Source of the DNA: a phage
Assembly: GCA_012813795.1 (NCBI GenBank)
Contig: GCA_012813795.1_4087.1
Length of the DNA stretch: 64,000 bases
Strand: one strand, 5' to 3'
Shown here: positions 7,600 to 18,755 of the stretch, piece by piece
Layout of the letters: each line of letters starts with the position of its first letter
Numbering within the stretch: the first letter of the stretch is position 1
Translations under genes and position numbers: made by a program
Notes under the pieces: generated by a model
What the model saw: only the letters and a program-made list of their open reading frames with translations
Told to the model about the DNA's origin: nothing
The model's database searches: none

Positions 7600-8211
7600 T
7601 TACTCATGTTTATCCAACAGCTTTTGTGCCTTTTTTAATGCTTTCATGTGTCGCCCGTACTCACGAACATGCCACAGATGATCGTTATCCCATAGCTCTT
7701 GACGCAATTTACGTTCTTCGATCATTTCTGGTGTAGGACGTTTACTTTCCTTCTCAATCTTATTGAAATAACGATTCATATGTTCTTCAAGTAGATTTAG
7801 GTTTTTGACTTTCTCAAGGAATTCATCAACCGTTTCAGTTTTATTTGAACGCATTTGGTTGCATCTTGAGCACATTGTATTAAAGTTGGACTCCAAATCA
7901 GCACCACCTTTAGATGCAAGATGATTATGATCTACAGTCATCATAACTTCATAAAGACCACATACTGCATACACATTTAAATGCGGTTTACCATATACCG
8001 GATCACTACAGTTAGAACGTTCGATTCGAACTTCTGTAGCCTCGATGCCACAAGCAATGCACTTACAATTCTTAACGAATGTTAGTACTTTTTGTGGAAA
8101 GTATCTGAAAGTAATACCATTATAAGTATAACGTTTCATTTTGGTACTAGTATGATTGAGTTCATCTAGTAAACTCAATTTGGTTACATAATAAACATGA
8201 TATTTAGACAT
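7600..8211 (-). CDS. HNH endonuclease (free-standing homing-endonuclease-like)
   Basis: 203 aa; HNH signature DHNH...N...CSRCNQ plus upstream Cys pairs. Confidence 0.65.
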   Translation of the reverse strand: MSKYHVYYVTKLSLLDELNHTSTKMKRYTYNGITFRYFPQKVLTFVKNCKCIACGIEATEVRIERSNCSDPVYGKPHLNVYAVCGLYEVMMTVDHNHLASKGGADLESNFNTMCSRCNQMRSNKTETVDEFLEKVKNLNLLEEHMNRYFNKIEKESKRPTPEMIEERKLRQELWDNDHLWHVREYGRHMKALKKAQKLLDKHE

Positions 8212-8212
8212 A

Positions 8213-8527
8213 CTATTCCTTAACTTTTATGTTAACACGAATATTTTGGTCTTGGAGTTTGCGAATTGTATCAATTAGTGCATCATATCTCAGTGCACAT
8301 TCATTGTATATGGAATCCCAACGCGTCAGAACGTTAAGAATTTCATCACCAGCATATCCTCTATTACCATGTGAGTCAACAACAATTTTTTTAGGAATTG
8401 GTGTATCTTCTTCGCATCGTTCTAATAAGATTTCCTGGGTGATTATTGGTGACGCTTGAACTGGAACCTTATTAGAACACCCAGTGATAAACATAAAAGT
8501 AATCAAGAATGTTAATATGTATTTCAT
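8213..8527 (-). CDS. o-spanin-like outer-membrane lipoprotein
   Basis: 104 aa; signal peptide with lipobox FITGC; immediately downstream of the i-spanin-like gene with 4-nt overlap. Confidence 0.6.
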   Translation of the reverse strand: MKYILTFLITFMFITGCSNKVPVQASPIITQEILLERCEEDTPIPKKIVVDSHGNRGYAGDEILNVLTRWDSIYNECALRYDALIDTIRKLQDQNIRVNIKVKE

Positions 8528-8898
8528 TTAAATTTCTCTCTAGCTGCAAGTGAATTTTGTTTTAGATCATTCAAAAGTTTTACCCCTTCTTCATCTAAAC
8601 ATACATTTCTATAAACTTCACGCTCAATAATAACTGGTACTTTAGTTTCTATTACCTTTGCATTATTTTGCATTATATGTTTAGTTTCTACATAGTTTTT
8701 GGTATTTTGGCTTTCAATTTTACTTAAAGCCGCATCTACTTTCTTCTCTATTTTTAATTCAATACTTTCTTTATACCCAGTATAAAAAGTATTAGCCTTC
8801 CAGCCACCAAAAGTACATGATGCCATCAGGAGAACAAACGCAATTGGTTTCCAGAACGGTATCAGTACTTTTGAAACAATAATATCTAGTACACTCAT
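8524..8898 (-). CDS. i-spanin-like protein
   Basis: 124 aa; N-terminal TM anchor followed by a charged helical region; paired with the downstream lipoprotein. Confidence 0.55.
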   Translation of the reverse strand: MSVLDIIVSKVLIPFWKPIAFVLLMASCTFGGWKANTFYTGYKESIELKIEKKVDAALSKIESQNTKNYVETKHIMQNNAKVIETKVPVIIEREVYRNVCLDEEGVKLLNDLKQNSLAAREKFK

Positions 8899-8943: not shown

Positions 8944-9369
8944 TTAGCGTTTATCGATCATTGTTTGTACATGTTCTACGAGATGTACGATTCTGGAATC
9001 ACCTGATTCATACTTATCTTCGATCTCAACCTTAAATTCATCTTCAAGTTCCATGATCATTTCTACCCAGTCCAGTGAATCAAATTTGAATTTTTCTTCA
9101 ATTTCTAAGGAGGTTAAATGTAAATTCATCAGTACATCTGCCTCTGATACATCACCATAACGTCCAGAAATGAATTTTGCAATTGCTTTCTCAACGTCAG
9201 TTGGTCCACGTGTACGGTATTCTGGTTCAAGGAACCATTCACCCTTATTGATAGCTTCTAATTCTAGTTTAATTTCATGCATTACTTTATAACGATCAGT
9301 ACTTTTATGGATGCGGCTAACTTCGCGATTCAGTACACGTAGTGCATCAATAATTGTTGAATTCAGCAT
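8944..9369 (-). CDS. acyl-carrier-protein-like domain protein
   Basis: 141 aa; C-terminal ~85 aa resembles ACP, including the phosphopantetheine-site motif DSLDWVEMIMELEDEF (compare DSLDTVELVMALEEEF). Confidence 0.6.
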   Translation of the reverse strand: MLNSTIIDALRVLNREVSRIHKSTDRYKVMHEIKLELEAINKGEWFLEPEYRTRGPTDVEKAIAKFISGRYGDVSEADVLMNLHLTSLEIEEKFKFDSLDWVEMIMELEDEFKVEIEDKYESGDSRIVHLVEHVQTMIDKR

Positions 9370-9378
9370 ATAATCCTC

Positions 9379-10620
9379 TTATTTTTTACCATACCACTGC
9401 ATTTCTCGAATATCGATTAGAACTTTTGCAGCTAGTTGAATGTTTGGTTTCTTTGGTAGAACTGACTTAGGATACACCACATTGCGGATATAGTCAACCT
9501 TTTCATTGAAATAATCCATGACTTCTTCATATTTCCATTTGCCGTTGCGGATATCCATTAGCATATCAGCATCAGGACGTTTAACAAGGATAATACCGCT
9601 TTGTAATGCTTCTTCGGCACTATTTAGCAGCCTGATCGTATGCATAGCATGTTTTAAATCGAAGCCGTGCTGTGATTCCATAAGAGCACGTTTAGCATTA
9701 CGATTCTCTTTCCATTTGTGATAACTTTTACGGTTCTCACTGTTCTCACTGTATTCTTTTTCATTGAATTTGACAATGAGTTCAGGTCGCACTTTCAATT
9801 CTTCAGTACTGCGTTCTTTGTTGAAATAACGTAAAGAACCATCAGCGTTAATTGTACTTTCATTAGGATTGATAATAACACCAAAGATATTTTCACCGTA
9901 ATGAATTAATTCGTACCCATTGTTATAATCCAATAAGTTGAAATCACGGTCTAGTACTTTATCAGTACTGTAATTATGTACTAAACGTACAAAATGATAC
10001 TGTTTCAACGGATGAGTTGAAACTAACTGCAATGAAGTATCACGCATGTATTTTTCAAAATCAATTTTCTTAGCATTAAATGGATGTAGTTTAGAAGTAT
10101 CTAAACGTTCTACCAAATAGTGTGGGAAATTTTCATACATCCATGCTAAAGTTTCATCTACTGGAAAATCTTCTAAGATTTCATTTAGACGTTTTTCAGC
10201 AATACGCTCTTTATCCATCCACCCGTGGTGATTAGACATACGCTTAACCTGATTATATGCATAACCGGTATAAGAGAATGCAATCTTAGAACTAAGTAAT
10301 TGTTGATTGAATGTACGTAGATAATCATAGATTTCAGTACTTTCTACGATGTGTTCAGGATCGACCCATAGTGATTCAAGAATATTTGGGTTAGCCTCTG
10401 TATATAGTCTTAAGTACTGGTTTAGTTCATAGAATTTAGTATCTTCTTCTCTTGAATCAGAAACTTCCTTTACATTATAAAAAGGCGTAAGGATGAATTC
10501 TTTGTTAGCAAGAAAAATACCACGATAATCCGTATCACTTTCAGGTGTACTGGTTCCATACGCTTGTGAACCTGCTAAGTGCTTCACAATTGTTTGTTCA
10601 AGAAATTTGTTATTATTCAT
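9379..10620 (-). CDS. Pol-beta-superfamily nucleotidyltransferase (RlaP-like)
   Basis: 413 aa; N-terminal HLAGSQAYG...SDTDYRGIF matches the GS...[DE]x[DE] nucleotidyltransferase signature. Confidence 0.5.
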   Translation of the reverse strand: MNNNKFLEQTIVKHLAGSQAYGTSTPESDTDYRGIFLANKEFILTPFYNVKEVSDSREEDTKFYELNQYLRLYTEANPNILESLWVDPEHIVESTEIYDYLRTFNQQLLSSKIAFSYTGYAYNQVKRMSNHHGWMDKERIAEKRLNEILEDFPVDETLAWMYENFPHYLVERLDTSKLHPFNAKKIDFEKYMRDTSLQLVSTHPLKQYHFVRLVHNYSTDKVLDRDFNLLDYNNGYELIHYGENIFGVIINPNESTINADGSLRYFNKERSTEELKVRPELIVKFNEKEYSENSENRKSYHKWKENRNAKRALMESQHGFDLKHAMHTIRLLNSAEEALQSGIILVKRPDADMLMDIRNGKWKYEEVMDYFNEKVDYIRNVVYPKSVLPKKPNIQLAAKVLIDIREMQWYGKK

Positions 10621-11018
10621 AGATGTAATGTTAGCTCCTTAAGAAACCCATTATAGTACTTCATGAAATCTTTATGAAGAACTTTGTATTCTGATAAACT
10701 AAAACCTAGATTGATTATAGTATCTTCTTGAAAGAACTTTTCTTCTTCGGATAAATCCAGAGAAATAGATTGTTTGCCACCATTTAATATTTTAGTAAAG
10801 TGTAAACCATCATTATTGATTTCAACGTACATGAAGTTATTTTCACGGTCACGAGGGCAAACAATATTAATGGAACTTTCACCAGTATCATCGTATTCGA
10901 ATGATATTACATCATACTCCCCGATTCCATAAAATTGTTTATCACTCTTGTAACCACTATATACTTTTTTATACGAATCCATCTGTCTTATGGTGCTATA
11001 CACATCATCAAGATCCAT
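10617..11018 (-). CDS. hypothetical protein
   Basis: 133-aa track ORF. Confidence 0.5.
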   Translation of the reverse strand: MDLDDVYSTIRQMDSYKKVYSGYKSDKQFYGIGEYDVISFEYDDTGESSINIVCPRDRENNFMYVEINNDGLHFTKILNGGKQSISLDLSEEEKFFQEDTIINLGFSLSEYKVLHKDFMKYYNGFLKELTLHL

Positions 11019-11021
11019 ATA

Positions 11022-11525
11022 TTAACTCCTGTAATATTGTAAGTATTCGTTCTTTGCATCATCCAATTCTTTTTGTTCCTGAATTTTCTTGTCGATATCT
11101 TTCACGTTAGTAATACTGTTATATAGTGCGTGAAGTACAAGAAAATCAGATACAGAAGTTGAAAAATCCTTCCACCCACCCGACATTTTAATACGCACAC
11201 GTATATCACGTCTGTCCATCCAGAACATGAACCCTCGATTCCCACGTAAATCATTAATCATATACACTTTAAAACAAGAATCTCGTGTGCTGCTTTCTCG
11301 TCTTTCAAAATCTACATGAATACTGAACAAGTTTTTTGAACAGTACTTACAAAATGCATAGATAACAGGATCACATTTTGAAAGAAGATATTTGTTTTGA
11401 ATAATTTCTCTGCGATCTTTGTCTGATTTAATATTAGGTACTAATAAAGTACTTTTGTTTAAAATCAACGCAACTAAGTACTGAAGAATATCATTATCTT
11501 TTACTTTATGTTTACCGAAGATCAT
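11022..11525 (-). CDS. hypothetical protein, tandem paralog 3 of 3
   Basis: 167 aa; shares the L...S.L......D.DR..I..K..LS motif block with the two upstream genes. Confidence 0.55.
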   Translation of the reverse strand: MIFGKHKVKDNDILQYLVALILNKSTLLVPNIKSDKDRREIIQNKYLLSKCDPVIYAFCKYCSKNLFSIHVDFERRESSTRDSCFKVYMINDLRGNRGFMFWMDRRDIRVRIKMSGGWKDFSTSVSDFLVLHALYNSITNVKDIDKKIQEQKELDDAKNEYLQYYRS

Positions 11526-12025
11526 TAGTATAATCCTTTTAGTTTATTAAATTCATTAAGTTTATGCTGCTCGTATTCTAACTTCTTGTACTTTGTTTCA
11601 AGCTCACGAAGTGCAACGAGTAAATGAAACAAAAACATTTGTTCATGTTTAGGTAGAATATTCGCATCTCCGTTAATATAAACAAATGTATGTTTTTCAT
11701 CATAATCTTTAGATGAATATGTTACTGCATTAAAATCAACCTTAGTTTCGGTATCAAACAATTTTACACGGTTGATATGATTACCATATATGAATACTGG
11801 TTCATATAACCAACGTTCACCGTATGGTTCTTTAACTAGGTCAGTGATTAGTTTCATTAGAGAATGAGAACTTAACATTTCTTTAATTTTAAGTATAGTT
11901 CTACGATCTTCATCAGTACTGATAATTTCTTTTAAAGAATAGCTTTTCATCAGTACTGGAAGAATTAATGTACACCACTCTACATTTTCTCTTTTGTGAT
12001 CATTATTTTTCTTTTTGAAAAACAT
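11525..12025 (-). CDS. hypothetical protein, tandem paralog 2 of 3
   Basis: 166 aa; paralogous to 12035..12595 and 11022..11525. Confidence 0.55.
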   Translation of the reverse strand: MFFKKKNNDHKRENVEWCTLILPVLMKSYSLKEIISTDEDRRTILKIKEMLSSHSLMKLITDLVKEPYGERWLYEPVFIYGNHINRVKLFDTETKVDFNAVTYSSKDYDEKHTFVYINGDANILPKHEQMFLFHLLVALRELETKYKKLEYEQHKLNEFNKLKGLY

Positions 12026-12034
12026 AGTAACCTC

Positions 12035-12595
12035 TTAATATAAATCAGTTATTCTCTTTTGGATTTTGAATTTACGCTGTTCTTCTTCAATTTGTGATAA
12101 CTTTTCTTTAATATCTTCAGCACCAATAATCACATGGAACAGGATCATTAACTCATCATCATCAAGCATATCATAATGAACACCGAAGTTTGAAGAAACA
12201 ACACATGACAAATCTCTTGATTGAATGATAGTTTCTTCGGTTCTGTGTTCAATCCCTGCTGGTGTATACTCAACCTTAAACATGATTGCATTTTTTAAAT
12301 CGCGTAGTATGAATTCTTCATCACCACCCCACAGTTTTTTTTGAACCATAGACCAACGATCACTGAATGGATTTTGGGTGTATTCTGCCAGTAATCCATA
12401 TAGTTTATGCTTACTTAACTTGTACTTAAGTTCGATAAGTGATTTACGATCATTATCGGTTTTCACAAAATCTTTAAGAGTTACACTTTTGCATAGCAAA
12501 CGAACTACTAGTGTATTCTGAAAGTGCTGCTCTTTTTCTTTTAAACGTTGTAACTGTGCGGGTGACAGTGGTGGTCTAAAACGTGATTGTACCAT
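12035..12595 (-). CDS. hypothetical protein, tandem paralog 1 of 3
   Basis: 186 aa; paralogous block around KSVTLKDFVKTDNDRKSLIELKYKLSKHKL. Confidence 0.55.
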   Translation of the reverse strand: MVQSRFRPPLSPAQLQRLKEKEQHFQNTLVVRLLCKSVTLKDFVKTDNDRKSLIELKYKLSKHKLYGLLAEYTQNPFSDRWSMVQKKLWGGDEEFILRDLKNAIMFKVEYTPAGIEHRTEETIIQSRDLSCVVSSNFGVHYDMLDDDELMILFHVIIGAEDIKEKLSQIEEEQRKFKIQKRITDLY

Positions 12596-12635
12596 AGATT
12601 CCTCCTAGTTTTTTAGCATTATACAGATAAAAGAA

Positions 12636-12657
12636 AAGCCTGTCAATAGACAGGCTT
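12636..12657 (-). terminator. intrinsic terminator (bidirectional hairpin) after the fiber locus
   Basis: Stem AAGCCTGTC/GACAGGCTT with 4-nt loop, T-rich on both sides; immediately after the stop of 12664..15405. Confidence 0.5.
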
Positions 12658-12663
12658 AATTTT

Positions 12664-15405
12664 TTAACTCCAACGAGTACCAGATTGTGATGGTAACCCA
12701 GAACTAGCTGGGATAGCAGAACCACGATTGTAGGTACTTGGGCGGTATAGCAAGAATCTGGACACTTTTTCAGACTCGATTGATGCAATACCATTAGCAT
12801 CAGTTACTATCTTACCAATGTAGGTTGATGTCATAGTTTCTGATAATTGATATAGTGATATCTGATACGAAGCTGTAGATGTACCTCTATCCATAACCGC
12901 ATATATGTAGAATGTTGAATTATCTGGTGTAGTACTTATGGTAGATAAGTCTATCATAGTCGGTGGTATCTTTGCAAACTTTCCACCCAAGAAAACTGGT
13001 ACTTCTTGTGAAAAGTACACGTTGAACCCTTGTGCCACATCCTGTGAAGCAACAACTAAGTACTGTGATATCGTTTCATTACCAGATATTAGTTTATCCA
13101 TATCTGCTTCAGTAGTACCACATACAGCAAAAACTGATTTAGTTTGATAATCGTTTTTGTTCATTTGGTAATATCCAAACCCAATCCCTGGAATTGTACC
13201 TATATCAAATTGTGCGTTTGAAATATAAGTTGTTTCCATATATCGTTGACTTGAAATAATACCATTTTTCACTTTAGCAATCATGTTAGGATAACGAGTC
13301 CATCCTGGGGTATCAATGCCATATAAAATGTTCACACCTAAGTAGTTAAAACCACTAAACTTAGCAACCGTCATACCAGCCCAACGTTTGATCATTTCAT
13401 TTGGTGAAATTTGGAATGTATTCGTGATTGATGTATATCTTGCTGTATCAACACTAATACCACGTAAAATTATAGTACCACTTGTACCCAGTGCACTACA
13501 TGATATTTCGGAAAAAATAATATAACACACGTTGGTAGTACCGTTTAGTGCAGAAGTGACTGCAATAGATTTAGAATATGTAGTATCAGGTACATAATAA
13601 AAAACAGTTTTATGTTCAGTTATTCCAGTCAATCCAGCTTTAGCAACGGCATTATAACCTATACCTGATAATGTAGTTCCTGAAATTTCATATCTATCAC
13701 TGTTAAAGTCCATTGTAACAGGGTCGAATTTTCCATAAGCTGGTTTATCGATACCTTCTATTAAAGAAGATCCATAAGTGCTGACATTTCCATTGGCATC
13801 AACCAATGTTACCATACCTGCATATTTGTAATCAGTACTTAAATAGTGTCTATTACCTGATGGTGCAAAACCATTCATTGTGGTATTTTGTTCCAAGTTT
13901 TTATAACTATAAGTTGGATTCTCACCTATTTCAGTAAAAACTGTACTATCATAACCATAAGAAATTCCATCAGCAGTACCAGAACATGCAACAAGTATCT
14001 TACGTTTATCAACGAAACGAACACCTATTAAGTTTTCACCTACAGGTGAACCATAAACGGGCATTACTTCTACGCGTTTTAAATTACTACCAGTACGTGT
14101 TTTAGCAACCCAACTATCATAAGGTGTACCAGAAACTTTGTATGTTTGTACTGCATAGGTCGGCATGGATGACCATCTTGCTTTGGTAGTGAAAACAAAA
14201 CCATCAGAAGTTTGACAGATTGAACCATAGTTACCAAGTGCACCATCATAAAACCCTGTAAAGTTTTCCATATTGATTGAAAACGGGTTTCTCACTGTTA
14301 TACTGCCAGTTGATGCATTAGCTGATACTCTGATTGGACCACGTTCAGAACCGTCAAGTGTCATTGTTTTAGTACTGATATCATATGTAAAGCTAATGCC
14401 AAGTGAATATACACTAGATGTTTTTGTTTCAGTAAAGACACGAAACCCTGGATATATCGCTACTCTTATTTTTGTACCATCAGGGCTAAGAACTGCTTGG
14501 GTATTAAACGTGTAATGTTGCCAGTCATCGATTTTGGAAACCCCATTATCATATGCTATTAGTGCATCACCACCTGAACCCAATACTGAATAGCTATCAT
14601 AAACGCGAATATTATTTGAAGCTGAATATGTTACATCTCGTATAGTTCTTCCTGAATAACCACTAATTTGTGTTACTGTCGAAACTGAACCAGTATTAAA
14701 TGCAGTTAAAGGTACTGTGTATATGATAAATGCACAACCGCGAACACTATTAAGAACACTTGAATCCCTACACCATATATAAACTGAATCATTTACGATG
14801 TGTGCATAGATTGGTTTATTTGTTATTGCTGTTTTTGGAATTCTACAGTGTTTATGAGCAGATTCATTTAATGTTTCATTTGTTAATGTAAGGTAGTATG
14901 ATGCTCTATCAGTTGATTCCCAAAATAGTAATTCATATGCATTTGACCCATAAAATTCATAAATGTAATCAGTGCTTGGTAGCACAGAAGGTCTATACAT
15001 CGTGTTGGTTGTAATTATATTATCTTGAGTTAGTGTTTCTATATCTCTTATATTTTTAATATAAGCATAATAGTAACCATACGAACTTCCATTTGTACCT
15101 GCACGTAAAATTACACCAGTACCATCATTTTCAATGATACAAGGTTGCATTATTTTTGCAAATGAAAAGGAAGAAGCACCTTCAAATGTACCGTTAATAC
15201 TCATCGGTAGGTAATCTTGATCACCTACCCTTGAAACTGGAAGCATATCAAACATCTGATCTACTTCCGCTTTGTCATAATATTGGTAAGTGATTTTACC
15301 AGCAGAATCAGCAGGGAATCCATTAAAGGAACGTAATGCATACTTTCCATTAATTTTCAAATTCCCTAGTATTTCTGCGTTTCCTATAATTCGTCTCGAA
15401 GCCAT
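12664..15405 (-). CDS. tail-fiber-like large structural protein (paralog B)
   Basis: 913 aa from the ATG with AAGGA RBS (track ORF extends to 15432); S/T/G/N/Y-rich; N- and C-terminal similarity to 16017..18716; ends ...SSGLPSQSGTRWS. Confidence 0.6.
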   Translation of the reverse strand: MASRRIIGNAEILGNLKINGKYALRSFNGFPADSAGKITYQYYDKAEVDQMFDMLPVSRVGDQDYLPMSINGTFEGASSFSFAKIMQPCIIENDGTGVILRAGTNGSSYGYYYAYIKNIRDIETLTQDNIITTNTMYRPSVLPSTDYIYEFYGSNAYELLFWESTDRASYYLTLTNETLNESAHKHCRIPKTAITNKPIYAHIVNDSVYIWCRDSSVLNSVRGCAFIIYTVPLTAFNTGSVSTVTQISGYSGRTIRDVTYSASNNIRVYDSYSVLGSGGDALIAYDNGVSKIDDWQHYTFNTQAVLSPDGTKIRVAIYPGFRVFTETKTSSVYSLGISFTYDISTKTMTLDGSERGPIRVSANASTGSITVRNPFSINMENFTGFYDGALGNYGSICQTSDGFVFTTKARWSSMPTYAVQTYKVSGTPYDSWVAKTRTGSNLKRVEVMPVYGSPVGENLIGVRFVDKRKILVACSGTADGISYGYDSTVFTEIGENPTYSYKNLEQNTTMNGFAPSGNRHYLSTDYKYAGMVTLVDANGNVSTYGSSLIEGIDKPAYGKFDPVTMDFNSDRYEISGTTLSGIGYNAVAKAGLTGITEHKTVFYYVPDTTYSKSIAVTSALNGTTNVCYIIFSEISCSALGTSGTIILRGISVDTARYTSITNTFQISPNEMIKRWAGMTVAKFSGFNYLGVNILYGIDTPGWTRYPNMIAKVKNGIISSQRYMETTYISNAQFDIGTIPGIGFGYYQMNKNDYQTKSVFAVCGTTEADMDKLISGNETISQYLVVASQDVAQGFNVYFSQEVPVFLGGKFAKIPPTMIDLSTISTTPDNSTFYIYAVMDRGTSTASYQISLYQLSETMTSTYIGKIVTDANGIASIESEKVSRFLLYRPSTYNRGSAIPASSGLPSQSGTRWS

Positions 15406-15415
15406 ATATATTCCT

Positions 15416-16006
15416 TTACCATTCTGTCCCACTATTCACATCTGGTGTACCAGAACTGATAGGGATAGCTGAACCAATTTTTGTAGCACTTACTCTGAAG
15501 TCGTCAAATCTTGACACTTTATTTATACTGACCCCTGTAATGCCATCTGGGAAAACTGTCATTTGTCCTATGTACATATTAACATTACTTTCAGGGCGTT
15601 GAGTTTTAGAAATGATGTAGTCAGCTACCCCAACATCTAATATAACATATACATAATGTGTTTCAATATTAGTTCCAGTAACGCCTGGGTCCGTTATTGT
15701 TTTAGCAGGGAGGGTATAAACCGCTCCCGCCATGAACAATGGTAATTCTTTACTGAAAGTTAATTTGAACCCAGCAGCAGTAATACCTAATGGTTCAGTA
15801 CTGTAAAGTGAACCAAATTGTGATAACGGAAAGGAACTGGTAATGTAATTCACATCATCTGTACTCATGAGTGGTACATCAACATTCCCATTAGCATCAG
15901 CTTGATACACATTACCAGAACGATCAGTTATCGTGGTCCCAGTATTTTTTCCTTGTGATTTAACGGAAGCATACGCTTCCACATCAGATCTAAATTTATA
16001 AGCCAT
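15416..16006 (-). CDS. short protein carrying the fiber C-terminal domain
   Basis: 196 aa; C-terminal ~120 aa alignable with the C-termini of both large fiber-like proteins; ends ...SSGTPDVNSGTEW. Confidence 0.55.
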   Translation of the reverse strand: MAYKFRSDVEAYASVKSQGKNTGTTITDRSGNVYQADANGNVDVPLMSTDDVNYITSSFPLSQFGSLYSTEPLGITAAGFKLTFSKELPLFMAGAVYTLPAKTITDPGVTGTNIETHYVYVILDVGVADYIISKTQRPESNVNMYIGQMTVFPDGITGVSINKVSRFDDFRVSATKIGSAIPISSGTPDVNSGTEW

Positions 16007-16016
16007 ATTATCTCCA

Positions 16017-18716
16017 TTACCAATTCACATTACCAGAACTTGAAGGGAACCCAGAACTAACTGGGAAGGAACTTCCGGCAGCGTCGAATGATGAACCAAA
16101 CAGGTCTAAACGCGAACGTTTTTCTATATTAATTTCGGTTATTTGTAAATCATCAGTTTTCACTGTACCAATCCAGTATATTGAATGAGTTTCAGCTAAT
16201 TCAGTTGTTGATATGTGATAGTTTGCAATACCCTGTACTAATTTAATATACACATAAAATGTAGTATTGGCAGGATTTGCTTTCACAGTTGTTAAATCTA
16301 TATTTGATATTGGTAATTTATAGTGTTTACCTGATAGCAGTACTGGTGTCTCTTCGGTGAAGTATATAATAAAACCTTGAGCAACATCTTGGGAAACAAG
16401 ACATATAAATGGATTTCCTTTATCAGTCCATGCATTATAATCCGCTAATGTAGTACCATATGTTCTAAAAATTGTTTTGTTTGTATTATCTATACTTTGA
16501 AGAATACCAAACCCAATATTAGGTAAAGCGAATGGTTGACCATCTAATGCATAGATAGGACGTGCACCAGCTATATGGAAATTATTAAATTGGGCTGTCG
16601 CTTTATCCACTGTAGCACGGAAAAATGGAGAGTTTGTATTACCAACTGTATTAAAGAAACCTGGAATACCACCACCAATGAAGTAGAAAGAACCAGCATC
16701 ATATATAGTAATACCAATACTTCCACTATCAAGATGATATGCGGTATCTGTTTTGTAATCCCCAGCTTGAACACTTTCATGTACTAAACGTTTGAACGAC
16801 CATGTTGTAATATCACCAGTTCTTGTATTGACATTCAATTCAACAACTCGTACATATAAACCACGGGCTGTAGTAGATGCTGCAAGAACACCAAAAACAG
16901 GAATATCAGTTTGTTGTGGAACAAATACAGATAATGTTTTTATTGATTCTGGTGATATATTCCATGAACTAGCAACTTTAGCAAATTCGGAATTTCGAAT
17001 AGCATTCATTATATCTTGAGACATACTGATTGTACCATTATTCAGTACATTACCTTTATAATCAAAACTAATAGGAGTTGATGTTCTATTATCTGCCACC
17101 AAAACACCACCATTAGTAGTGACCGTTGAACCAGAAATTGAACTTATAAAAATTCTAGATTCTGGTGTAGTTATAAACGCTCGGTCTGGTGTTGGTTCAT
17201 AACCAGGAACAGTACCATAGTCTAGAGACTTAAATGTAAAGTTCGGTGTAGCTTTATGTACAGCATAGGATGGATAAAAACGACCATCACCAGAACGTCT
17301 TGAATATTGTTTAGTACTGTTATTTGGTAATAACTCTACACCTACTTGGTATGAACCAACTGCTGAACCAAATCTTGGTGATACTACACCATTAATAAAA
17401 TTAGTTGCTGATACACTTCTAACATTCATTAAATTAAACAATGACTGTGGTGGATATTTCGCATATGATAAGTTCAATGCTTCTGCGAGGTTTGGTGAGA
17501 ATGAACAAAATGCATCACCAGTTGATGGTACATAGCAATAATTACTAAAAATATTACGACCACCCGCGTGAAGATAAAATGGATCTTTTGTTATGCATTG
17601 ACCCGTTACATTCATACTTGAACCCGTGTCATTAACAGCAACTGGTGTAGTCGTTAACATATTATCTAATTTACATTGTTTTGTCACAACATCAAAAGTC
17701 ATACTAAAACCATGTTGTGGGCGTGTGTCATATCGTCCATTTGTCATCCACATATCACCACATAATCTAAATCTGAATTCGGATGTACCAGATTTCTGTG
17801 CAACATATAAATCTGGATCTGTCATATAAACACCAAACCCAATAATACCACTTGGAATTAAAACGTATGGATTATCATTGGTATTTGTTGAATTTATTTT
17901 CATAGTTGGAACAATATTGTCATCATATACCATTGCATTATAAAAAGTTCTTGTGGCCCAACCAGTAATTCTAGTAACACTATAAGTACCACCACCTGGG
18001 TTATTACTTGGACTAAAAGTAACTTTAGTAACGGATATTTTAAGAGTATTGCTTGGTGTATCTAAACTGAAAAAGTATAATGAACCATCTTCAGCACGAA
18101 TAACAAATTGTATTGCACCAAAAGGTTGTACGGCTGTATGGTCTGATAGAATAATACCAGTGTGCATTGTATCATTCATAGTACCATTATTGACTGAAAC
18201 AAAAACTCTATCAATATATGTACCATCAGAATTTTCAGTTCTCACCAAACCACAAGTAATATCATCACTGCTTGGATACAAATAAACTGCATACCCAGCA
18301 CCAAAATAATTTGGTTTATATGCACGAGTAGTATTAACCATACGACTTGTATTTGTTGTACCAACCGCCTGGGTCATATAACTATAATAAATCCCCTGTG
18401 TACTTCCATTAGTACCCGGACGTAACATTACTAAAGTGTTATCATCTTCCAAAAATAATTTTGTATTTCTGGAACTAGCATTTTCTGAAGAACCAACTGT
18501 TGTACCATTGACACCAGCAGGTAGATAGTTTTGTGTACCATAACGAGAAATGGGTAACATACCAACCATTTCCAGCATATCATCTTGTGTATATGCATCT
18601 ATTGTGAGATTGCCATTTTCATCAAATACGTTATCATTGATGCTCTGAACACTTCTCTTACCTTTGACTGTTACATTATGTGTAACATCAATGCCACCAT
18701 ATATTTTCTTTGCCAT
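16017..18716 (-). CDS. tail-fiber-like large structural protein (paralog A)
   Basis: 899 aa; N-terminal LPISRYGTQNYLP block and C-terminal SQDVAQGF...SSGFPSSSGNVNW shared with paralog B; ATG with AAGGGA RBS; late-promoter-like box upstream. Confidence 0.6.
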   Translation of the reverse strand: MAKKIYGGIDVTHNVTVKGKRSVQSINDNVFDENGNLTIDAYTQDDMLEMVGMLPISRYGTQNYLPAGVNGTTVGSSENASSRNTKLFLEDDNTLVMLRPGTNGSTQGIYYSYMTQAVGTTNTSRMVNTTRAYKPNYFGAGYAVYLYPSSDDITCGLVRTENSDGTYIDRVFVSVNNGTMNDTMHTGIILSDHTAVQPFGAIQFVIRAEDGSLYFFSLDTPSNTLKISVTKVTFSPSNNPGGGTYSVTRITGWATRTFYNAMVYDDNIVPTMKINSTNTNDNPYVLIPSGIIGFGVYMTDPDLYVAQKSGTSEFRFRLCGDMWMTNGRYDTRPQHGFSMTFDVVTKQCKLDNMLTTTPVAVNDTGSSMNVTGQCITKDPFYLHAGGRNIFSNYCYVPSTGDAFCSFSPNLAEALNLSYAKYPPQSLFNLMNVRSVSATNFINGVVSPRFGSAVGSYQVGVELLPNNSTKQYSRRSGDGRFYPSYAVHKATPNFTFKSLDYGTVPGYEPTPDRAFITTPESRIFISSISGSTVTTNGGVLVADNRTSTPISFDYKGNVLNNGTISMSQDIMNAIRNSEFAKVASSWNISPESIKTLSVFVPQQTDIPVFGVLAASTTARGLYVRVVELNVNTRTGDITTWSFKRLVHESVQAGDYKTDTAYHLDSGSIGITIYDAGSFYFIGGGIPGFFNTVGNTNSPFFRATVDKATAQFNNFHIAGARPIYALDGQPFALPNIGFGILQSIDNTNKTIFRTYGTTLADYNAWTDKGNPFICLVSQDVAQGFIIYFTEETPVLLSGKHYKLPISNIDLTTVKANPANTTFYVYIKLVQGIANYHISTTELAETHSIYWIGTVKTDDLQITEINIEKRSRLDLFGSSFDAAGSSFPVSSGFPSSSGNVNW

Positions 18717-18747: not shown

Positions 18748-18755
18748 TATTTATA
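18748..18755 (-). promoter_or_regulatory. T4-type late promoter box TATAAATA (minus strand)
   Basis: Exact TATAAATA on the minus strand about 32 nt upstream of the fiber-A ATG, directly after a terminator. Confidence 0.4.

What the first reader, a model, noticed from the sequence alone, without database searches (positions are those of the whole stretch)
11022..12595. Tandem triplication of a ~170-aa gene directly downstream of the fiber locus
Three consecutive genes share a conserved block (L..S.L......D.DR..I..K..LS). Tandem paralogs next to receptor-binding genes may be fiber assembly or accessory factors, or a diversifying family.
Basis: seen in the sequence. Interest (0 to 1): 0.4.

Follow-up and report, generated by a model that had tools for sequence, protein, structure and literature searches.

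The report
Three old paralog genes beside fibre genes
Three neighbouring small genes in this giant E. coli phage are real but very old copies of one gene of unknown function, and they appear to belong to a separately switched gene block rather than being helpers for the neighbouring tail-fibre-like genes.

Summary
Three minus-strand genes, A (12035-12595, 186 aa), B (11525-12025, 166 aa) and C (11022-11525, 167 aa), are full-length homologues: BLASTP A-B gives 2e-15, and the A/B versus C profile comparison gives 98.8% probability, E 1.3e-16. The window is an Asteriusvirus jumbo phage, 98.6% identical to phage A4.

The duplication is ancient. The family (PHROGs 18641 and 7868, unknown function) occurs in 2-4 tandem copies across Rak2-like jumbo phages.

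The fibre-helper idea is not supported:
- A conserved terminator hairpin and a perfect sigma-70 promoter separate the triplet from the fibre-like operon, which carries a T4-type late motif.
- Triplet alleles assort independently of fibre alleles (versus ph0011: fibres 90-94% identical, triplet 35-37%). They co-vary with the downstream 133-aa gene and RlaP nucleotidyltransferase.
- Orthologues are absent from two published virion proteomes.
- There is no match to tail-fibre assembly families.

My best reading is fast-evolving, early-type, non-virion cytoplasmic proteins aimed at host or nucleic-acid targets. The function itself is inferred, not shown. This is a modest finding.

The parts
12035..12595 (-). 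Paralog A (186 aa), first gene of the unit; phrog_18641
   Evidence: ORF with an AGGAGG Shine-Dalgarno sequence. 100% identical to A4_498. AF2 model pLDDT 89.4.
11525..12025 (-). Paralog B (166 aa); phrog_18641
   Evidence: BLASTP to A gives 2e-15 over the full length; PHROG hit; its stop overlaps the start of C (TAATG).
11022..11525 (-). Paralog C (167 aa); phrog_7868, the oldest branch
   Evidence: PHROG hit; hhalign A/B clade versus C clade E 1.3e-16; orthologue of 121Q gp504 and RaK2 gp002.
12618..12646 (-). Perfect sigma-70 promoter TTGACA-17-TATAAT in front of A
   Evidence: 3 perfect sites in 64 kb against 0.19 expected, all on the coding strand. Conserved in A4, ph0011, 121Q, SD-6, JNE01 and L011. 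Analogous sites occur in RaK2, CBB, L008 and L009.
12636..12657 (-). Intrinsic terminator hairpin ending the fibre-like operon; its 3' arm carries the -35 box
   Evidence: 9-bp stem plus a T-run; -15.9 kcal/mol, z -6.0; conserved, with one compensatory change in the stem.
10617..11018 (-). 133-aa gene (phrog_22376) packed behind C, co-inherited with the triplet
   Evidence: 3-nt gap after C and a 4-nt overlap with the next gene. Its identity pattern correlates with A/B/C, r 0.91-0.97.
9379..10620 (-). RlaP-family nucleotidyltransferase (413 aa), same packed gene string
   Evidence: Pfam PF10127 at 2.1e-17 and phrog_388. Syntenic in 121Q, RaK2, CBB and L009.
12664..15405 (-). Upstream ~913-aa fibre-like virion protein f2 (the mechanical ORF runs to 15432; the likely ATG is at 15405, as in A4_497)
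   Evidence: phrog_3573; paralog of f1 at 26%; the CBB homologues were detected in virions.
15416..16006 (-). 196-aa gene sharing the C-terminal ~120 aa of f1 and f2
   Evidence: phrog_26864 and phrog_3573 C-terminal hits; tblastn 36-39% identity.
16017..18716 (-). 899-aa fibre-like virion protein f1, first gene of the late operon
   Evidence: The orthologue phAPEC6 gp323c was detected by virion MS.
18748..18755 (-). T4-type late-promoter motif TATAAATA about 40 nt upstream of f1
   Evidence: conserved in A4, ph0011, 121Q, SD-6 and phAPEC6. The motif is depleted in the window, 2 against 11.6 expected, and both copies lie in this operon.

Best explanation
A, B and C are ancient tandem paralogs of a stand-alone ~160-220-aa protein family. 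The family is restricted to Rak2-like jumbo phages, with 2-4 copies per genome.

They are not part of the fibre-like late operon. They open a tightly packed string of genes (A-B-C, a 133-aa protein, an RlaP nucleotidyltransferase, and probably onward). This string starts at a consensus sigma-70 promoter placed directly on the terminator of the fibre-like operon.

I infer the following:
- They are made by host RNA polymerase early in infection.
- They stay in the cytoplasm (no signal peptide or membrane segment) and are not built into the virion.
- Each protein has a conserved N-terminal helical patch (KS..L......D.DR...I..KY.LSK), a variable five-strand beta-meander and a 40-residue C-terminal helix ending in an invariant tyrosine.
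- The most likely mode of action is that the conserved patch docks on a common partner (a nucleic acid, or a host or phage protein) while the variable body gives each paralog its own target. That would make them host-directed take-over or counter-defence effectors working alongside nucleic-acid enzymes.

Shown: paralogy, ancient origin, transcription signals, independence from fibre alleles, purifying selection, and absence from published virion lists. Inferred: early timing, cytoplasmic effector role, and target.
For: Paralogy.

Identity of the phage and synteny.

Transcription signals:
- Terminator plus a perfect sigma-70 promoter, conserved across genera.
- Late motif only at the fibre-like operon, and depleted elsewhere.
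- The CBB paper assigns RpoD-like promoters to early genes and ATAAATA to structural genes in Rak2-like phages (PMC5259590).

Independent assortment:
- Window versus ph0011: fibres 89-94% identical, triplet 35-37%.
- ph0011 versus 121Q: fibres 44-54%, triplet 87-96%.
- Correlation of A with B/C is 0.95-0.97, with p133 0.91, with the nucleotidyltransferase 0.84, and with f2 only 0.43.

Not in virions: phAPEC6 gp319c-321c are absent while gp314c, gp315c and gp323c are present (PMC7247149). CBB_150/153/155/156 have no MS detection while CBB_148 and CBB_149 do.

Functional constraint: dN/dS is 0-0.34, and 0.57 for C against A4.

Structure: AF2 pLDDT 89.4, pTM 0.80.

Neighbours in other genera are nucleic-acid enzymes (Thg1, an N4-cytosine methyltransferase and RlaP), plus a DUF4326 protein of unknown function.
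Against: - No expression data exist for any Asteriusvirus. 'Early' rests on promoter type and on analogy with T4 and CBB.
- Read-through of the terminator could also give late expression.
- CBB's published promoter list does not include a site before CBB_150, although one is visible in the sequence.
- Absence from MS lists is weak negative evidence for ~20-kDa proteins.
- No homology or fold match supports any particular activity.
- The position just after the receptor-binding or fibre-like cluster is kept across genera. That would also fit some generic link to those genes.
- The identity correlations use non-independent genome pairs.
Confidence: 0.5

Rival explanations
1. Fibre assembly chaperones or accessory factors. 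Each small protein would help one of the neighbouring large fibre-like proteins to fold or attach, as Tfa, gp38 or gp57A do in other phages.
For: - The genes lie immediately downstream of the fibre-like or tailspike cluster in every lineage examined.
- Their size (~170 aa) and the pattern of a conserved N-terminus with a variable remainder resemble Tfa proteins. This resemblance is from my own knowledge and was not tested here.
- 121Q has three small paralogs and three large fibre-type genes near this locus.
Against: - A terminator and a sigma-70 promoter separate them from the late fibre-like operon.
- Their alleles do not co-vary with the fibre alleles.
- The window, ph0011 and L011 have three small genes but only two large ones here. 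RaK2 has two small genes after about ten unrelated tailspike genes. CBB has four small genes after three large ones.
Confidence: 0.12
2. Dimeric DNA-binding regulators of phage transcription. Helices 2-3 would form a helix-turn-helix-like unit with a basic recognition helix, and the long C-terminal helix would dimerise.
For: - The nearly invariant residues (K36, S37, L40, D47, R50, K57, Y58, S61) cluster on helices 2-3 of the model.
- Most members are mildly basic, with pI of 8-9.4.
- Placement behind an early-type promoter fits a regulator.
Against: - 35% identity within one genus is unusually low for regulators of conserved phage promoters.
- No repeated operator-like sequence was found nearby.
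Confidence: 0.15
3. Decaying, functionless duplicates: junk left by tandem duplication during genome expansion.
For: Tandem duplication is a recognised route of jumbo-phage genome growth (PMC7247149). One orthologue, A of Salmonella phage SD-6_S16, is split into two ORFs.
Against: - All three are intact and keep their orthology across genera.
- dN/dS is well below 1.
- Ribosome-binding sites and translational coupling are kept.
- The AF2 fold is confident.
Confidence: 0.03

Closest known systems
PHROG families phrog_18641 and phrog_7868 (unknown function); orthologues A4_498-500, 121Q gp502-504, phAPEC6 gp319c-321c, RaK2 gp001/gp002, CBB_150/153/155/156
   Same: Direct sequence membership. The synteny and gene order are the same. 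All are annotated as hypothetical.
   Different: PHROGs split the family in two, and the CBB paralog table does not list its small genes as paralogs. Here the two PHROGs are shown to be one full-length family.
Phage tail fibre assembly proteins (Mu/P2/lambda Tfa, Pfam PF02413; T4 gp38 and gp57A)
   Same: Small proteins encoded just downstream of receptor-binding genes, with a conserved N-terminal part and a variable remainder.
   Different: No sequence or fold match. They form a separate sigma-70 transcription unit. They do not co-vary with the fibres and show no copy-number parity.
T5 Llp-type receptor-blocking lipoproteins encoded beside the receptor-binding gene
   Same: An early-type gene next to receptor-binding genes, divergent between related phages. 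The comparison with Llp is from my own knowledge.
   Different: A, B and C have no signal peptide, lipobox or membrane segment. The hydrophobic stretch is part of helix 1 of a globular model. They do not co-vary with the neighbouring fibre genes.
Tandem paralog arrays of small early genes in large lytic phages (for example T4 modA/modB; the jumbo-phage paralog arrays noted for RaK2, CBB and phAPEC6)
   Same: Clustered, divergent, small non-structural genes behind host-type promoters.
   Different: No ADP-ribosyltransferase or other catalytic motif; there is no invariant acidic residue. The fold has no PDB neighbour.

Membership tests
PHROG 18641 / 7868 small-protein family of Rak2-like jumbo phages | Significant full-length profile match | tested here: met
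   A scores 5.1e-33 and B 1e-23 to phrog_18641; C scores 2.4e-26 to phrog_7868, with cross-hits of 1e-5 to 1e-9. All 43 collected members hit phrog_7868.
PHROG 18641 / 7868 small-protein family of Rak2-like jumbo phages | Conserved position: after the fibre-like or tailspike cluster and before the RlaP nucleotidyltransferase | tested here: met
Tail fibre assembly proteins (Pfam PF02413 Caudo_TAP, Tfa) | Sequence match to the family profile | tested here: not met
   No PF02413 hit in any of the 43 members at E up to 10, and none for A, B or C at E up to 0.1.
Tail fibre assembly proteins (Pfam PF02413 Caudo_TAP, Tfa) | Fold similar to a solved Tfa or other fibre chaperone | tested here: not met
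Tail fibre assembly proteins (Pfam PF02413 Caudo_TAP, Tfa) | Co-expression and co-variation with the cognate fibre gene | tested here: not met
   A terminator and a sigma-70 promoter lie between the fibre-like operon and A. Correlation of identities with f2 is 0.39-0.43, against 0.91-0.97 with p133.
Tail fibre assembly proteins (Pfam PF02413 Caudo_TAP, Tfa) | Physical binding to the fibre and a requirement for fibre folding | not testable with these tools
Receptor-masking or superinfection-exclusion lipoproteins (T5 Llp type) | Signal peptide with a lipobox, exported | tested here: not met
   The N-termini are charged. There is no lipobox and no stretch long enough for a membrane helix (the sequences). 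Residues 12-35 are modelled as a helix of the globular domain.
Known anti-defence or defence proteins (PADLOC models; AcrIF13 as a fold hit) | Profile or fold match | tested here: not met
Helix-turn-helix transcription regulators | Match to an HTH profile or fold | tested here: inconclusive

The most novel reading that the evidence does not exclude
The family would be a previously unrecognised class of early effectors with a new fold, shared by all Rak2-like jumbo phages. The 2-4 co-inherited paralogs would use a common N-terminal docking patch and variable bodies to neutralise different host factors, such as defence or RNA-damage systems, together with the adjacent RlaP or Thg1 RNA-repair-type enzymes.
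Probability: 0.25. Interest if true: 0.55.

Novelty: new member of a known kind. Interest (0 to 1): 0.3.

Why it matters
The practical point is an annotation warning. Proximity to receptor-binding genes is not evidence of a fibre-helper role here. The fibre-like operon is a late-gene island inside a region driven by host-type promoters, and its downstream neighbours belong to a different unit.

The work also joins two 'unknown' PHROGs into one family that is conserved across Rak2-like jumbo phages. That family has a confidently predicted fold without a solved relative, and its lineages within one genus are unusually divergent. This makes it a reasonable, though not urgent, candidate for screens of early host-directed phage proteins.

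Tried and rejected
- Pfam, NCBIfam and PADLOC scans of A, B, C and the 133-aa neighbour gave nothing for the triplet. A Pfam scan of all 43 family members at E up to 10 gave only scattered single hits.
- A PDB sequence-profile search gave one hit, the 4y9v tailspike lyase, at E 0.49 on the KY.SK motif. I rejected it as chance. The motif regular expression matched no ORF outside those the family HMM picks up, fibres included, and the model places the motif in a helix.
- The word-indexed protein search found only 2-5 relatives. The exhaustive search found 42. One of these, P0010 (1157 aa), is a tandem-repeat artefact. No domain fusions were seen.
- There are no DNA repeats within the triplet, and no tRNA or Rfam hits in the window.
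- A search for positive selection found only purifying selection.
- The literature on Asteriusvirus, RaK2 and CBB does not mention these genes and has no transcriptome. Every database name for family members is 'hypothetical'.

Full report
**What is there.** The window is part of an Asteriusvirus (121Q/PBECO4-like) jumbo coliphage. Positions 10500-13000 are 98.6% identical to Escherichia phage A4, where all the genes concerned are annotated as hypothetical. The finding's coordinates match three consecutive minus-strand ORFs exactly: A 12035-12595 (186 aa), B 11525-12025 (166 aa) and C 11022-11525 (167 aa). Each has its own Shine-Dalgarno sequence. A and B are 9 nt apart, and B's stop overlaps C's start (TAATG). 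The 133-aa gene starts 3 nt after C ends and overlaps the following RlaP-type nucleotidyltransferase gene by 4 nt.

**Is the similarity real?** Yes.
- BLASTP gives A-B E 2e-15 over the full length (25% identity), A-C 3e-6 and B-C 0.012, the last two over the N-terminal block.
- A and B hit phrog_18641 and C hits phrog_7868, with significant cross-hits.
- A profile-profile comparison of the A/B clade (14 sequences) with the C clade (9 sequences) gives 98.8% probability, E 1.3e-16, over 163 columns.
A stricter regular expression for its core matched only ORFs that the family HMM also finds, in the window and the loci held at that point; it misses some members, including window B.
- The family HMM finds exactly three members in the 64 kb.
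- No nucleotide-level repeat survives.

**Age and distribution.**
- tblastn finds the family in 45 phage records: Escherichia and Salmonella Asteriusvirus, and Klebsiella RaK2/K64-1-like phages.
- More distant members occur in CBB, GAP32, Yersinia fHe-Yen9-03/04, Erwinia and Serratia Eneladusvirus-type phages and Xanthomonas XbC2.
- An exhaustive HMM search of 1.84 billion representatives finds only 42 proteins. All are stand-alone proteins of 150-219 aa, apart from two shorter fragments and one repeat artefact.
- Copy number is 2 in RaK2 (gp001, gp002), 3 in Asteriusvirus, and 4 in CBB-like phages, where the copies are interleaved with Thg1, DUF4326 and a methyltransferase.
- A neighbour-joining tree keeps A, B and C orthologues in separate clades. 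RaK2 gp002 falls with C, and RaK2 gp001 falls outside A and B.
- The C versus A/B split therefore predates the Rak2-like radiation, and the A/B split predates Asteriusvirus diversification. This is not a recent triplication.

**Transcription signals.** The 68-nt spacer between the upstream ~900-aa gene and A holds a 9-bp GC-rich hairpin followed by a T-run (12657-12636; -15.9 kcal/mol, z -6.0).
- The 3' arm of the hairpin is the -35 box of a perfect TTGACA-17-TATAAT promoter (12646-12618). AGGAGG and the ATG follow.
- Only three perfect sigma-70 sites exist in the window against 0.19 expected, and all are on the coding strand.
- The element is conserved in A4, ph0011, 121Q, SD-6, JNE01 and a metagenomic relative, with one compensatory stem change.
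- A terminator plus a TTGACA-type promoter also precedes the first family member in RaK2, CBB and two CBB-like contigs.
- By contrast, the first fibre-like gene (16017-18716) has the T4-type late motif TATAAATA about 40 nt upstream, conserved across Asteriusvirus.
- That octamer is strongly depleted in the window, 2 against 11.6 expected, and both copies lie in this operon.
- The CBB paper assigns RpoD-like promoters to early genes and ATAAATA to structural genes in this phage group (PMC5259590).

The fibre-like genes therefore form a late island ending at a terminator, and the triplet opens a different, host-polymerase-type unit. That it is 'early' is an inference, because no transcriptome exists.

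**Relation to the fibre-like genes.** Pairwise identities across six genomes show independent assortment.

| Pair | f1 / 196-aa / f2 | A / B / C |
|---|---|---|
| Window vs ph0011 | 90 / 89 / 94% | 36 / 35 / 37% |
| ph0011 vs 121Q | 54 / 44 / 51% | 87 / 92 / 96% |

- Nucleotide similarity between the window and ph0011 is lost between about 11011 and 12411-12585, the stretch that holds the three genes. It resumes at the 133-aa gene (78%) and at the spacer (91%).
- A, B and C co-vary with each other (r 0.95-0.97), with the 133-aa gene (0.91-0.97) and with the nucleotidyltransferase (0.84). They co-vary only weakly with f2 (0.39-0.43).
- Copy numbers do not pair up either. The window, ph0011 and L011 have three small and two large genes here. 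The third fibre module of 121Q and A4 is absent from the whole window.
- RaK2 has two small genes after an unrelated tailspike cluster.
- Orthologues are absent from the phAPEC6 virion proteome although the neighbouring gp314c, gp315c and gp323c are present (PMC7247149). They are also undetected in CBB virions although CBB_148 and CBB_149 are detected.

**Selection.** Close pairs give dN/dS of 0-0.18 for A and B and 0.08-0.57 for C. This compares with 0.03-0.04 for the 133-aa gene and 0.07-0.14 for the nucleotidyltransferase. The genes are functional and constrained, only more loosely than their neighbours. The 27-40% identity between lineages reflects old allelic types shuffled by recombination. 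Breakpoints fall at the spacer and also between B and C: for window versus L011, dS is 1.35, 0.90 and 0.07 for A, B and C.

**Structure and homology.**
- With a 43-sequence alignment, AlphaFold2 gives pLDDT 89.4 and pTM 0.80. The model has four helices (12-74), a five-strand meander (81-141, with a low-confidence insertion at 111-128) and one 40-residue helix (146-185).
- The nearly invariant residues (K36, S37, L40, D47, R50, K57, Y58, S61) lie on helices 1-3. Y186 ends the last helix.
- Pfam, NCBIfam, PADLOC and PDB sequence searches give no usable hit.
- The proteins have no signal peptide or membrane segment and are mildly basic.

**Interpretation.** The most likely account (about 0.5 for the framework, less for the specific activity) is this:
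- The genes encode early-type, non-virion cytoplasmic proteins, co-inherited and probably co-transcribed with the 133-aa protein and the RlaP nucleotidyltransferase.
- They use a conserved helical patch to bind a common partner, and variable bodies for paralog-specific targets.
- That points to host take-over or counter-defence rather than particle assembly.

The rivals are generic fibre chaperones (0.12), dimeric DNA-binding regulators (0.15) and decaying duplicates (0.03). Function remains untested.

**Verdict.** This is a real and tidy, but ordinary, feature. The genes are already deposited as hypothetical proteins and catalogued in two PHROGs of unknown function. The small additions made here are:
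- merging the two PHROGs into one family;
- defining the terminator-promoter boundary;
- showing that the family is independent of the fibre genes;
- a confident model without a solved relative.

Noticed in passing
window 12618-12657 (minus strand): This is a compact terminator-promoter element. The -35 hexamer TTGACA of the triplet's promoter forms the loop end and 3' arm of the terminator hairpin of the fibre-like operon. The arrangement is kept in Asteriusvirus and, as TTGACC, in CBB-like phages.
   Followed up: partly
window 9369-9379: The tail-fibre module that lies between the nucleotidyltransferase and the acyl-carrier-like gene in 121Q (gp507-509) and A4 (A4_503/504) is missing here. 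It has no tblastn match anywhere in the 64 kb. ph0011 and the metagenomic contig L011 lack it too.
   Followed up: partly
window 8524-8898 and 8213-8527 (minus strand): This overlapping gene pair looks like an i-spanin/o-spanin pair. It is a 124-aa protein with an N-terminal membrane helix followed by a 104-aa protein with a lipoprotein signal (MKYILTFLITFMFITGC). The CBB homologues CBB_164 and CBB_165 were, however, reported as virion-associated.
   Followed up: no
whole window: The octamer TATAAATA is strongly depleted, 2 found against 11.6 expected. Both copies lie on the coding strand inside the fibre-like operon (18755 and 15527). This fits with it being the functional late promoter, and with the rest of the window being early or middle genes.
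   Followed up: partly
window 15416-16006, 12664-15432, 16017-18716: The 196-aa protein and the two ~900-aa proteins share a homologous C-terminal ~120 residues (36-39% identity). This C-terminal module also occurs in virion and tail proteins of phiKZ/EL-like and Ea35-70-like jumbo phages. The label 'fibre' for these proteins is plausible but unproven.
   Followed up: partly
L005 6391-6937 (Salmonella phage SD-6_S16): The orthologue of paralog A is split into two ORFs of 103 and 74 aa. This is either a frameshift (pseudogene) or a sequencing error.
   Followed up: no
window 8944-9369: This 141-aa protein has a weak phosphopantetheine-attachment (acyl carrier) signature. It directly follows the nucleotidyltransferase and is conserved at this position in RaK2, CBB and 121Q.
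   Followed up: no
protein clusters of 121Q gp502-type and window-A-type sequences: Many identical copies sit on 344-379-kb contigs. Most carry 'Escherichia coli' protein names, and some are named phage genomes. So whole Asteriusvirus genomes are common in E. coli isolate assemblies, through carrier state, contamination or pseudolysogeny.
   Followed up: no
window 7600-8211 (minus strand): An HNH endonuclease gene sits in the same gene string. It is 74% identical to its ph0011 counterpart and is present at the same place in RaK2.
   Followed up: no
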